Sequence record: KF322032
DNA length: 33,628 bases
From: Enterobacteria phage fiAA91-ss
Strand: one strand, 5' to 3'
The position numbers are program-made. Below are positions 24,001 through 25,712 of this stretch, in pieces. Every line of letters begins with the position of its first letter. Within the stretch, counting starts at the first letter, position 1.

Positions 24001-25712
24001 CAGTCATTAACCAGAGCGTATATTTTTTAAATAAAGGCGTATTTGTGACTCGCATAACGATGCTGAGACCAGGGTCTTTATGCCCACTTTCGTAATTTTT
24101 GACTGTTCCTAGAGCTATCCCGCTAATTTCGCTGAATTTCGCCTGTGTTAAGCCTTCTGCTTTCCTAATCGCTTTCAGTTTTTCGAATGTCTGCATTTGA
24201 CAGTAACCTATTGGTGACTTATATTCCCGTCAAAAGGTTGTGTATTGGTGACCTTTTGAGTGTGTTAGCCAGTCCCTAGAAAGGACAGGGGCGACCTAGA
24301 AGGGACTGGATCTAATAAGGGTAACACGAAAGCAAAAAGGGCTAATCAATGGAAGTCAATGACTATGTGATTCAGTACCCGATTGATGCGGTACATACGG
24401 TTAAGTTTGCAGAGTTACTTGGTAAGCCAGAAACGGCTGTAGTCGTCAAGATGTCAGCGCCAGTGATATAAGACGGTAATTCGCCATTTGGATTGTCCGC
24501 TCCACCCAACATGTTGTTTCCTTAAGGTTCTCACACCAGAAAGGACATCAACATGCTGAGCAGAGAGGACTTTTACATGATAAAGCAAATGCGCCAGCAG
24601 GGCGCGTACATCGTCGATATTGCGACTCAGATTGGTTGCTCTGAACGGACGGTCAGACGCTACCTCAAATACCCTGAACCGCCAGCCAGAAAGACCCGCC
24701 ACAAAATGGTTAAGCTGAAACCGTTTATGGATTACATCGACATGCGCCTGGCAGAGAATGTCTGGAATAGCGAGGTTATCTTCGCGGAGATTAAGGCAAT
24801 GGGTTATACGGGCGGACGTTCCATGCTGCGTTACTACATCCAGCCCAAACGTAAAATGCGTCCGTCAAAAAGAACAGTTCGCTTCGAAACTCAGCCTGGA
24901 TACCAGCTCCAGCATGACTGGGGCGAAGTTGAGGTGGAGGTTGCCGGGCAACGGTGCAAAGTTAACTTTGCGGTTAATACGCTGGGGTTCTCCCGCAGCT
25001 TCCATGTCTTCGCCGCACCAAAACAGGATGCTGAGCATACCTACGAATCACTGGTTCGCGCCTTCCGCTACTTCGGTGGTTGTGTGAAAACGGTGCTGGT
25101 TGATAACCAGAAGGCTGCGGTGCTGAAGAATAACAACGGGAAAGTCGTGTTCAACTCCGGATTCCTGTTGCTGGCTGACCACTATAACTTCCTGCCACGG
25201 GCATGCCGTCCACGCAGGGCCAGAACAAAAGGTAAGGTTGAGCGGATGGTGAAATACCTCAAGGAGAACTTCTTCGTCCGGTACCGCAGGTTCGACAGCT
25301 TCACTCATGTCAATCAACAACTGGAGCAATGGATAGCCGATGTGGCTGACAAACGGGAGCTTCGCCAGTTCAAAGAAACGCCGGAACAGCGCTTCGCGCT
25401 GGAGCAGGAACATCTGCAGCCGTTACCGGATACAGACTTCGATACCAGTTACTTCGATATCCGCCATGTGTCCTGGGACAGCTATATCGAGGTTGGTGGT
25501 AATCGTTACAGCGTTCCCGAAGCGCTGTGTGGTCAGCCGGTATCGATACGAATATCGCTGGATGACGAGTTGCGGATCTACAGTAATGAGAAACTGGTGG
25601 CCTCACATCGCCTCTGTTCAGCATCGTCTGGCTGGCAGACAGTGCCGGAGCATCACGCCCCGCTCTGGCAGCAGGTCAGTCAGGTGGAACATCGACCACT
25701 GAGTGCCTATGA

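What the first reader, a model, noticed from the sequence alone, without database searches (positions are those of the whole stretch)
24197..24348. Immunity switch architecture: operator direct repeats in Pe and a repeat family shared with attP
TATTGGTGAC occurs twice as a direct repeat (24209-24218, 24243-24252), one copy in the spacer of the predicted Pe promoter TTGACA-17-TATATT and one downstream of it, the arrangement expected for C repressor operators. Separately, an 11-mer AAGGGACTGGA occurs both here (24300-24310) and in the attP region (22787-22797), with degenerate relatives at 24269-24278 (inverted), 24281-24290, 24316-24325 and 22796-22805. A motif shared by the switch region and attP is what is expected for Cox boxes, since Cox both represses Pc and directs excision.
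Basis: partly seen in the sequence, partly recalled or inferred. Interest (0 to 1): 0.45.

Follow-up and report, generated by a model that had tools for sequence, protein, structure and literature searches.

The report
Known WPhi phage immunity switch operators
This is the already characterised lysis/lysogeny switch of coliphage WPhi: the repeated 10-mer is the published C repressor operator, and the motif shared with attP fits the Cox protein's binding box, so it is real but ordinary.

Summary
The window is a complete, cos-to-cos P2-like phage genome. Its ogr-attP-int-C-Pe/Pc-cox region is 99.6% identical to coliphage WPhi, and the switch at 24197-24348 is 100% identical.

TATTGGTGAC at 24209-24218 and 24243-24252 is exactly the published, mutationally tested WPhi C operator (half-sites O1 and O2, 34 bp apart, flanking the -10 of Pe).

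The switch copy is the right half of a 15-nt imperfect direct repeat (24275-24289 and 24295-24309). That repeat matches the published statement that WPhi Cox recognises a 12-nt direct repeat in Pe-Pc. The attP copy lies in the P' arm, between the 47-nt core and the Int arm sites, followed 10 bp later by a second box (GAAGGGCTAC).

The shared 11-mer alone is weak evidence (p about 0.02). However, in relatives whose Cox has a different recognition helix, the arm boxes and switch boxes change together (GGG, CGG or CCG cores; permutation p = 0.004).

In this genome IS21 interrupts cox, so the boxes have no cognate protein.

The parts
24197..24225 (+). Pe early promoter: -35 TTGACA (24197-24202), 17-nt spacer, -10 TATATT (24220-24225). 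Transcription start is about 24232.
   Evidence: 11 of 12 consensus matches, the only hit in 2 kb. The AJ245959 promoter feature 1757-1793 maps to 24195-24231. The start site follows from 'transcripts overlap by 82 nt' in PMC1904263.
24209..24218 (+). C repressor operator half-site O1 (TATTGGTGAC), in the Pe spacer.
   Evidence: PMC1904263 states that changing O1 from TATTGGTGAC to CGCCAACAGT abolishes repression in vivo.
24243..24252 (+). C repressor operator half-site O2 (TATTGGTGAC), at about +12 to +21 of the Pe transcript and 34 bp from O1.
   Evidence: PMC1904268 describes 10-bp half-sites 34 bp apart flanking the -10. PMC1904263 places O2 60 nt from the Pc start.
24268..24278 (-). Inverted copy of the box (TAGGGACTGGC on the - strand). 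It is the left arm of the perfect 9-bp inverted repeat 24269-24277 / 24301-24309.
   Evidence: This arm covaries with the right-hand box across 24 distinct switch sequences.
24275..24309 (+). 15-nt imperfect direct repeat, CCTAGAAAGGACAGG and CCTAGAAGGGACTGG, 20 bp apart. I infer it to be the published 12-nt WPhi Cox recognition repeat. It lies at about +4 to +38 of the Pc transcript, inside the 82-nt Pe/Pc overlap.
   Evidence: PMC5009727 reports that WPhi Cox recognises a 12-nt direct repeat in Pe-Pc. Equating the two is my inference; the primary paper is not held.
24300..24310 (+). The 11-mer AAGGGACTGGA (switch copy), the strongest box.
   Evidence: It is invariant in 35 of the 39 WPhi-helix Cox loci. 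The AAGG(G)ACNGG core is kept where the flanks differ, in L049 and L058.
24313..24349 (-). Pc lysogenic promoter (-35 TTGATT at 24349-24344; start about 24313). It is overlapped by the weaker boxes TAAGGGTAAC (24316-24325) and AAAGGGCTAA (24336-24345).
   Evidence: The AJ245959 promoter feature 1875-1911 maps here. PMC1904263 gives the distances.
22787..22806 (+). attP P'-arm boxes TAAGGGACTG and GAAGGGCTAC, 10 bp apart, between the core and the Int arm sites. Inferred Cox (excision) site.
   Evidence: one of only two AAGGG pairs within 12 nt in the genome; the other, at 26839/26848, is coding sequence. The boxes are invariant in all 11 WPhi-Cox loci that include the arm. They covary with Cox class.
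22759..22783 (+). Two exact TAAGAAAAC repeats 16 bp apart in the P' arm. This is possibly the 9-bp attP repeat of the 2009 paper. A-rich equivalents occur in every Cox class.
   Evidence: The link to the literature is from memory only.
22691..22737 (+). 47-nt attP core, identical to attB; it includes a host-type terminator hairpin.
   Evidence: Host-only and prophage-junction matches begin and end here at 100% identity. Prophage 569R9 sits next to cpxP.
22624..22642 (+). P-arm Int arm-binding direct repeat (TGTGGACGCTATGTGGACA).
   Evidence: The P2-type arm consensus is tgTGGaCa (PMC3448106).
22820..22838 (+). P'-arm Int arm-binding direct repeat (TGTGGACACTATGTGGACA).
   Evidence: PMC3448106.
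23903..24196 (-). C immunity repressor gene (97 aa), identical to WPhi C.
   Evidence: tblastn gives 100% identity over residues 1-97 to AJ245959 and AY135739.
24349..24451 (+). 5' fragment of cox (codons 1-34), cut by IS21.
24452..26581 (+). IS21 (istA, istB) inserted in cox, with the 4-bp target duplication AAGA at 24448-24451 and 26582-26585.
   Evidence: One search shows 100% identity to IS21 copies in E. coli. One search confirms the junctions.
26582..26758 (+). 3' fragment of cox.
   Evidence: Removing the IS restores WPhi Cox plus one extra Val.

Best explanation
The region is the WPhi-type (immunity class III) developmental switch of a P2-like phage. It has two independent operator systems.

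(1) C operator. Dimers of the C repressor bind the two directly repeated half-sites TATTGGTGAC. O1 lies in the Pe spacer and O2 at about +12 to +21. Binding bends the DNA and blocks the early promoter Pe, which maintains lysogeny. This is shown experimentally in the literature for an identical sequence.

(2) Cox boxes in the switch. The winged-helix protein Cox binds cooperatively to a set of boxes with an AAGG(G)AC core. The set comprises an inverted box (24268-24278), two direct boxes that form the imperfect repeat (24275-24309), and weaker boxes over the Pc -10 and -35 (24316-24345). These lie in the 82-nt Pe/Pc overlap, immediately downstream of the Pc start. Cox bound there, and spreading over Pc, would shut off C and int transcription. 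Binding of Cox to a 12-nt repeat in Pe-Pc and repression of Pc are published. Which bases form the box, and the spreading, are my inference.

(3) Cox boxes in attP. The same protein binds two boxes one helical turn apart in the attP P' arm (22787-22806), between the core and the Int arm sites. There it would bend the arm to favour excision and inhibit integration. A Cox requirement for WPhi excision in vitro is published. Assigning these particular bases is inferred here from position, invariance and covariation.

In this genome IS21 has split cox. The boxes are intact, but the phage cannot make its own Cox.
For: - Identity to WPhi: 99.6% over 1865 nt, and 100% over 24197-24348. C is identical.
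- O1 and O2 sequence, spacing and position match PMC1904263 and PMC1904268. The published oligo 'WPhi wtop' equals window 24197-24253.
- Pe and Pc positions transfer from the AJ245959 features and agree with the published '82 nt overlap' and 'O2 60 nt from the Pc start'.
- WPhi Cox represses Pc, promotes excision, does not use P2 cox-boxes, and recognises a 12-nt direct repeat in Pe-Pc (PMC5009727). The only such repeat is at 24275-24309.
- P2-type boxes TTAAASNCM are absent from both regions.
- Covariation, by Cox recognition helix:
  - VVKMVKE (WPhi): arm TAAGGGACTG and GAAGGGCTAC; switch GAAAGGACAG and GAAGGGACTG.
  - VSEMVKA and VTEMIKA (L-413C, P37): arm GAGCGGTTTC; switch AAACGGTTTT, GAGTGGTTTA and AAGCGGTTTT.
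  - VQTMIEK and VAAMIEK: arm TAACCGTCTG and GAACCGTTTC; switch GAGCCGTTTT and AAAGCCGCTG.
  - Arms match their own switch better than other switches (permutation p = 0.004).
- The helix differences fall where the P2 Cox structure paper predicts specificity: residue 33 is K in WPhi (PMC3936717; alignment).
- All 11 WPhi-Cox loci with an arm keep the boxes unchanged, including two arms that carry 7 substitutions elsewhere.
- The recombinant L058 carries WPhi Cox and its boxes with a different C and operator, which shows that the two operator systems are separate modules.
Against: - The exact 11-mer match alone has p of about 0.02.
- The matched-versus-mismatched difference is modest (16.3 versus 15.3 of 20). 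The roughly 10 classes fall into only about 3 independent groups.
- The primary footprint data (Virology 2009; J Virol 1999) could not be read. My recollection of the abstract is that attP binding is weaker and that the authors pointed to a 9-bp repeat sharing only 5 bp with the Pe-Pc repeat. That fits TAAGAAAAC x2 better than the 11-mer.
- Box spacing in the switch (20, 17 and 20 bp) is not a clean helical register.
- The CTGGATC tail of the right-hand box is conserved across Cox classes, so part of it may be constrained by something other than Cox specificity.
Confidence: 0.85

Rival explanations
1. The 11-mer shared with attP is a coincidence. Cox acts at attP through other sequence, such as the TAAGAAAAC x2 repeat at 22759-22783, or through low-specificity cooperative binding. 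Only the switch copy would then be a real site.
For: - The shared word has only p of about 0.02.
- TAAGAAAAC is an exact 9-bp direct repeat in the same arm.
- From memory, the 2009 abstract mentions a 9-bp attP repeat sharing 5 bp (AGAAA) with the Pe-Pc repeat, and lower affinity for attP.
- Directionality factors are known for relaxed specificity (PMC7498355).
Against: - Arm boxes change in step with switch boxes in phages with other Cox helices.
- The A-rich TAANAAAAC region is similar in all Cox classes, so it does not track Cox specificity.
- The arm boxes are invariant in all WPhi-Cox loci.
- The two AAGGG boxes are 10 bp apart, the usual directionality-factor geometry.
Confidence: 0.1
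2. The inverted pair CCAGTCCCT / AGGGACTGG works mainly as an RNA (or cruciform) hairpin in the overlapping Pe and Pc transcripts. One example would be a stem-loop within about 4 nt of the 5' end of Pc mRNA that stabilises it or modulates convergent transcription. On this reading it is not a pair of protein sites.
For: - A perfect 9-bp stem is present.
- Predicted folding energies are -20.0 and -21.6 kcal/mol, with z-scores of -2.6 and -3.8.
- The two arms covary across 24 distinct switches (99 matches versus 75.2 +/- 4.4 for permuted pairs).
- Arm-to-arm spacing is conserved at 20-24 nt.
- The NN before TGGA tracks its inverted partner in the switch but not the attP arm box.
Against: - The same box occurs in attP with no inverted partner. 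P2 Cox boxes are known to occur in both orientations (PMC3936717). Two inverted protein sites therefore explain the covariation equally well.
- Mismatches do not favour G-U pairing on one strand.
- The sequences are related, so the permutation p-value overstates independence.
- This reading is not exclusive of Cox binding.
Confidence: 0.12
3. The AAGGG-type boxes are bound by a different protein, such as Int, IHF or C, rather than by Cox.
For: Int and IHF also act on attP arms. An IHF-consensus match lies nearby at 22734-22746.
Against: - Int arm sites are the distinct TGTGGACA repeats (PMC3448106).
- Int is 97-98% identical between WPhi and the L-413C class, while the boxes differ.
- The C operator is a different sequence. 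L058 swaps C and its operator without changing the boxes.
- The boxes track the Cox helix.
Confidence: 0.03

Closest known systems
Coliphage WPhi (Peduovirus Wphi, immunity class III) transcriptional switch: C operators O1/O2, Pe/Pc, Cox operator
   Same: - The switch DNA (24197-24348) and the C protein are identical.
- The O1/O2 sequence, the 34-bp spacing and the position flanking the Pe -10 are the same.
- The Pe/Pc geometry is the same.
- The attP core, Int arm sites and P'-arm boxes are the same.
   Different: - cox is split by IS21 and carries one extra Val codon.
- There are a few substitutions in int and in the int-C spacer.
- The genome is 33,628 nt as given (cos repeated at both ends), versus 32,684 nt for WPhi.
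Phage P2 switch and attP (C half-sites 22 bp apart; cox-boxes TTAAA(G/C)NC(A/C))
   Same: - Face-to-face Pe and Pc promoters.
- C binds two direct repeats flanking the -10 of Pe.
- Cox is both the Pc repressor and the excision directionality factor, with boxes in both the switch and the P' arm and in both orientations.
   Different: - The operator sequence, length (10 versus 8 bp) and spacing (34 versus 22 bp) differ.
- No P2-type cox-boxes are present.
- The Cox boxes lie mostly downstream of the Pc start rather than over the -10 and -35.
- Transcript overlap is 82 nt.
- WPhi Cox does not activate P4 (PMC5009727).
Phage 186 Apl (dual directionality factor and lytic repressor)
   Same: One small protein binds direct repeats about one helical turn apart, both between convergent lytic and lysogenic promoters and at att. 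Binding is cooperative and bends the DNA (PMC7498355).
   Different: It belongs to a different protein subgroup with a different repeat sequence. The immunity repressor is of the CI type with inverted-repeat operators. Seven Apl operators lie at pR-pL.
L-413C / P2_AC1 / P37 and 'MIEK' Cox-class P2-like phages
   Same: The module layout is the same: -35, O1, -10, O2, inverted box, direct boxes, CTGGATC, Pc. The attP core and Int arm sites are the same, and there are two arm boxes 10 bp apart.
   Different: The C operators differ (for example CCTATATAGG x2, also 34 bp apart). The Cox box cores differ (CGG/TGG or CCG instead of GGG), matching the different Cox recognition helices.

Membership tests
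WPhi-type (immunity class III) C repressor / Pe operator | A C repressor of the WPhi sequence type. | tested here: met
   The 97-aa ORF at 23903-24196 (-) is 100% identical to C of AJ245959 and AY135739.
WPhi-type (immunity class III) C repressor / Pe operator | Two directly repeated 10-bp half-sites TATTGGTGAC, 34 bp centre to centre, flanking the -10 of Pe. | tested here: met
   Definition taken from PMC1904263 and PMC1904268.
WPhi-type (immunity class III) C repressor / Pe operator | Face-to-face Pe and Pc promoters with about 82 nt of transcript overlap. | tested here: met
   The AJ245959 promoter features map to 24195-24231 (+) and 24313-24349 (-) on identical sequence. This agrees with PMC1904263. 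The start sites themselves are not measured here.
WPhi-type (immunity class III) C repressor / Pe operator | C binds the half-sites and represses Pe. | not testable with these tools
   Published for the identical sequence by EMSA, CAT assays and O1 mutation (PMC1904263).
WPhi Cox operator in Pe-Pc | An imperfect direct repeat of about 12 nt between Pe and Pc. | tested here: met
   CCTAGAAAGGACAGG and CCTAGAAGGGACTGG, 13 of 15 identical and 20 bp apart. Definition from PMC5009727. The exact published bases could not be checked.
WPhi Cox operator in Pe-Pc | An intact cognate cox gene. | tested here: not met
   IS21 at 24452-26581 splits cox after codon 34.
WPhi Cox operator in Pe-Pc | A Cox footprint or EMSA shift on these bases. 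| not testable with these tools
   The primary papers are not held.
P2-type cox-boxes | Multiple (six or more) copies of TTAAA(G/C)NC(A/C) in Pe-Pc and in attP. | tested here: not met
   None of the 10 matches in the window lies in 22581-22852 or 24197-24348. This is consistent with the statement that WPhi Cox does not bind those cox-boxes (PMC5009727).
Recombination directionality factor sites in an att arm | Tandem sites about one helical turn apart, between the core and the integrase arm sites. | tested here: met
   AAGGG at 22788 and 22798 (10 bp apart). The core ends at 22737 and the Int arm repeat starts at 22820.
Recombination directionality factor sites in an att arm | The site sequence tracks the specificity of the factor. 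| tested here: met
   Arm and switch boxes covary with the Cox recognition helix. Permutation p = 0.004, from roughly three independent groups.

The most novel reading that the evidence does not exclude
Two things may go beyond the literature I could read.

(a) In this Cox subfamily the attP-arm boxes and switch boxes form a readable specificity code. The central triplet is GGG, CGG/TGG or CCG, and it tracks recognition-helix residues around positions 32-37. This would allow Cox specificity and heteroimmunity on the lytic side to be predicted from sequence.

(b) The covarying inverted pair of boxes, with its conserved 20-24 nt spacing, sits at the very 5' end of the Pc transcript. It may have a second role as an RNA hairpin that sets Pc mRNA stability or modulates convergent-promoter interference.
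Probability: 0.2. Interest if true: 0.4.

Novelty: already known. Interest (0 to 1): 0.15.

Why it matters
It matters little as a discovery. The WPhi switch, its C operator and the dual role of Cox were worked out experimentally between 1999 and 2016.

The check does show that a sequence-only reading recovered real, experimentally defined operators.

The comparison with relatives adds a small, testable refinement. It indicates which bases of the Cox repeat are the likely recognition core (AAGG(G)AC). It indicates that the attP P' arm carries two such boxes one turn apart. It also shows that arm and switch boxes co-evolve with the Cox helix.

The IS21 insertion in cox is of practical interest. 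This phage should be unable to repress Pc or to excise on its own, so it would be biased towards, or locked into, lysogeny.

Tried and rejected
- Primary papers. I tried to read Ahlgren-Berg 2009 (Virology), Liu and Haggard-Ljungquist 1999 (J Virol) and Karlsson 2006 (J Bacteriol). None is held. Four literature searches found only secondary statements.
- P2-type cox-box scan. No hits in either region.
- Degenerate pattern RAARGGVYWR. It was badly designed: it misses boxes that start with T, and the hit count equals expectation, so it is uninformative.
- A third AAGGG cluster at 26808-26848 looked like another Cox site. It is coding sequence (GKGRKG in the orf78-like gene) and is present in phages of many Cox classes. 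It does not track Cox and was rejected.
- IMG/VR loci. Of the 80 IMG/VR loci fetched with the Cox alignment, most are prophage predictions trimmed exactly at the int stop codon and lack the P' arm. Only about a dozen new arms were usable.
- Ungapped MAFFT alignment of the switch. It put the left arms of different classes in different columns, so I did not run RNAalifold or pair counts on it. I used anchored per-sequence comparison instead.
- The cox::IS21 junction was not found in the phage collection or in complete E. coli genomes, so the source record stays unidentified.
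Full report
**What the window is.** The 33,628-nt window starts and ends with the 19-nt P2 cohesive-end sequence GGCGAGGCGGGGAAAGCAC, so it is a whole P2-like phage genome written cos to cos. Around the finding the gene order is ogr (+), attP, int (-, 22853-23863), C (-, 23903-24196), a 152-nt spacer, then cox (+, from 24349). Megablast of 22580-24560 against phage records gives 99.6% identity over 1865 nt to coliphage WPhi (AY135739, AJ245959) and close relatives. 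In a three-way alignment the spacer 24197-24348 is identical to both WPhi records. The C protein is also identical.

**Checking the observation.** TATTGGTGAC has exactly two perfect copies in the window, at 24209-24218 and 24243-24252. The only sigma-70-like site in the surrounding 2 kb is TTGACA (24197-24202), 17 nt, TATATT (24220-24225). One copy therefore lies in the spacer and one downstream.

AAGGGACTGGA has exactly two perfect copies, at 24300-24310 and 22788-22798. The switch copy is the right half of a 15-nt imperfect direct repeat, CCTAGAAAGGACAGG (24275-24289) and CCTAGAAGGGACTGG (24295-24309). Together with 24269-24277 it also forms a perfect 9-bp inverted repeat.

A shared exact word of 11 nt or longer between the switch and the attP spacer occurs in 2.2% of dinucleotide shuffles and in 5 of 234 other windows of this genome. 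The 11-mer alone is therefore only suggestive.

**The C operator is already known.**
- PMC1904263 states that the WPhi O1 half-site is TATTGGTGAC and that changing it to CGCCAACAGT abolishes repression in vivo. It also states that C dimers bind two directly repeated half-sites 34 nt apart and bend the DNA.
- Its cloning oligo 'WPhi wtop' is the same sequence as window 24197-24253.
- PMC1904268 describes the half-sites as 10 bp long, 34 bp apart, flanking the -10 of Pe.
- AJ245959 annotates two promoters that map to 24195-24231 (+, Pe) and 24313-24349 (-, Pc).
- PMC1904263 adds that the transcripts overlap by 82 nt and that O2 lies 60 nt from the Pc start. This puts the Pe start near 24232 and the Pc start near 24313.

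**What the literature says about Cox.** PMC5009727 reports that WPhi Cox (90 aa) represses WPhi Pc and promotes excision in vitro. It does not bind P2 cox-boxes, and instead recognises a 12-nt direct repeat found in the Pe-Pc region. The only direct repeat of that kind is 24275-24309. P2-type boxes (TTAAASNCM) are absent from both regions.

The primary paper (Ahlgren-Berg 2009) is not held. From memory, its abstract says attP is bound more weakly and contains a 9-bp repeat sharing 5 bp with the Pe-Pc repeat. That fits TAAGAAAAC x2 at 22759 and 22775 better than the 11-mer.

**Anatomy of attP.**
- Prophage-junction and host-only matches delimit a 47-nt core at 22691-22737. One prophage sits beside cpxP.
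- Int arm-type repeats (TGTGGACNCTATGTGGACA) lie at 22624-22642 and 22820-22838. They match the P2-type consensus tgTGGaCa (PMC3448106).
- The 11-mer and a second box (GAAGGGCTAC) lie 10 bp apart at 22787-22806. This places them in the P' arm between the core and the Int arm sites, where a directionality factor would be expected.
- Apart from a coding-sequence pair at 26839/26848, which I rejected, this is the only place in the genome with two AAGGG within 12 nt. The switch holds one of only two clusters of three AAGGG within 50 nt; the other is that same coding region.

**A natural experiment.** Several phages share the WPhi core, Int arm sites and a 97-98% identical Int, but carry other C and Cox alleles. 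A scan of IMG/VR with a Cox alignment added more classes. The Cox proteins differ mainly in the recognition helix and the wing. The structure paper predicts specificity determinants at exactly these positions; position 33 is K in WPhi (PMC3936717).

The boxes follow the helix:

| Cox recognition helix | Phages or loci | attP arm boxes | Switch boxes |
|---|---|---|---|
| VVKMVKE | WPhi and this window | TAAGGGACTG, GAAGGGCTAC | GAAAGGACAG, GAAGGGACTG |
| VSEMVKA / VTEMIKA | L-413C, P2_AC1, P37 | TAAGGGTTTG, GAGCGGTTTC | AAACGGTTTT, GAGTGGTTTA, AAGCGGTTTT |
| VQTMIEK / VAAMIEK | L062, L068, L086 | TAACCGTCTG, GAACCGTTTC | GAGCCGTTTT, AAAGCCGCTG |

- I scored each arm against every switch. Arms match their own switch better than others (mean 16.3 versus 15.3 of 20; permutation p = 0.004). 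There are only about three independent groups, so this is supportive rather than decisive.
- All 11 WPhi-Cox loci that include the arm keep TATAAGGGACTGGAAGGGCTACAAAG unchanged. Two of those arms carry seven substitutions elsewhere.
- Locus L058 combines WPhi Cox and its boxes with a different C and operator. The C/operator module and the Cox/box module are therefore separable.
- Where the flanks of the repeat differ (L049, L058, L060), the AAGG(G)ACNGG core is retained.

**The inverted copy.** Across 24 distinct switch sequences, the left arm (xCCAnnnnnnn) and the reverse complement of the right-hand box agree at the variable positions far more than permuted pairs do (99 versus 75.2 +/- 4.4). 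The arm-to-arm spacing is conserved at 20-24 nt.

This can be read in two ways. It may be two Cox boxes in opposite orientation; P2 has cox-boxes in both orientations (PMC3936717). Or it may be a hairpin. The predicted RNA folds are -20.0 and -21.6 kcal/mol, with z-scores of -2.6 and -3.8. The stem would start about 4 nt from the Pc 5' end.

The same box occurs in attP without a partner, so I favour protein sites. A second, RNA-level role is not excluded.

**Mechanism, with its basis.**
- Shown in the literature for this sequence: C binds O1 and O2 and represses Pe. Cox binds a repeat in Pe-Pc, represses Pc, and is needed for excision in vitro.
- Inferred here: the Cox boxes are 24268-24278 (inverted), 24279-24288 and 24299-24310. 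Weaker boxes lie over the Pc -10 (24316-24325) and -35 (24336-24345). Cox bound at +4 to +46 of Pc, and spreading over the promoter, blocks C and int expression. Two boxes in the P' arm (22787-22806) recruit Cox to bend the arm for excision.

**State of this genome.** IS21 (100% identical to E. coli copies) sits at 24452-26581, with a 4-bp AAGA duplication, and splits cox after codon 34. Removing it restores WPhi Cox plus one extra Val (a GTC duplication at 24445-24447) inside the recognition helix. The operators are intact, but the phage cannot supply Cox.

**Verdict.** The finding is a correct rediscovery of the WPhi immunity switch. The novelty rating is 'already known'. The arm/switch covariation across Cox classes is a modest comparative refinement.

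Noticed in passing
window 24452-26581 (target duplication AAGA at 24448-24451 and 26582-26585): A complete IS21 (istA and istB, 100% identical to E. coli copies) is inserted in cox after codon 34. The phage therefore cannot make Cox, although every Cox box is intact. This exact junction is absent from the phage collection and from complete E. coli genomes.
   Followed up: yes
window 24445-24447: An extra GTC lies directly next to the IS21 insertion. The reconstructed Cox reads AVVVK instead of AVVK, an added Val inside the recognition helix. All WPhi-type Cox proteins in the fetched loci are 90 aa and lack it.
   Followed up: partly
window 1-19 and 33610-33628: The 19-nt P2 cos sequence GGCGAGGCGGGGAAAGCAC is present at both ends. 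The window is a whole genome in virion (cos-to-cos) permutation with an intact attP, even though cox is inactivated.
   Followed up: partly
window 24230-24238 and 24251-24259: A perfect 9-bp inverted repeat, TCAAAAGGT and ACCTTTTGA, brackets operator half-site O2 right at the Pe transcript start. A similar GAAAAGGT...ACCTTTTC pair surrounds the class-specific O2 in most other immunity classes (listing). It is conserved independently of C specificity, and its function is unknown.
   Followed up: no
L058 (IMGVR_UViG_2802429253_000014), switch upstream of cox at 1739: A natural recombinant. It has the WPhi recognition helix in Cox (97% identical overall) and WPhi-type Cox boxes, joined to a different C (74% identical) and a different Pe operator. 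The breakpoint lies between O2 and the inverted box.
   Followed up: partly
window 22734-22746: TATCAATCACTTA is a perfect match to the IHF consensus WATCAANNNNTTR (consensus from my own knowledge). It sits at the core / P'-arm boundary and is conserved as TATCAATNACTTA in all Cox classes.
   Followed up: no
L006 (Yersinia phage vB_YpM_22) 1770-2335; also L039: About 565 nt, including an annotated 78-aa ORF, are inserted between the P' Int arm sites and the int stop codon. The arm boxes are left intact.
   Followed up: no
window 26808-26848: A cluster of AAGGG motifs sits just downstream of cox. It is coding sequence (GKGRKG in the orf78-like gene) and is present in many Cox classes, so it is not a Cox site.
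   Followed up: yes
L008 (Yersinia phage HQ103) 3667-3852: The C repressor gene is truncated to 61 aa in this Y. pestis-propagated phage. This is consistent with a clear-plaque (lytic) variant.
   Followed up: no
L004, L005, L007-L009, L011 (L-413C class), first 60 nt of the switch: Their putative C operator is CCTATATAGG x2 (CTATATAGG in L007), also exactly 34 bp apart and in the same positions (Pe spacer and about +12) as in WPhi. The operator geometry is conserved while the sequence changes.
   Followed up: partly
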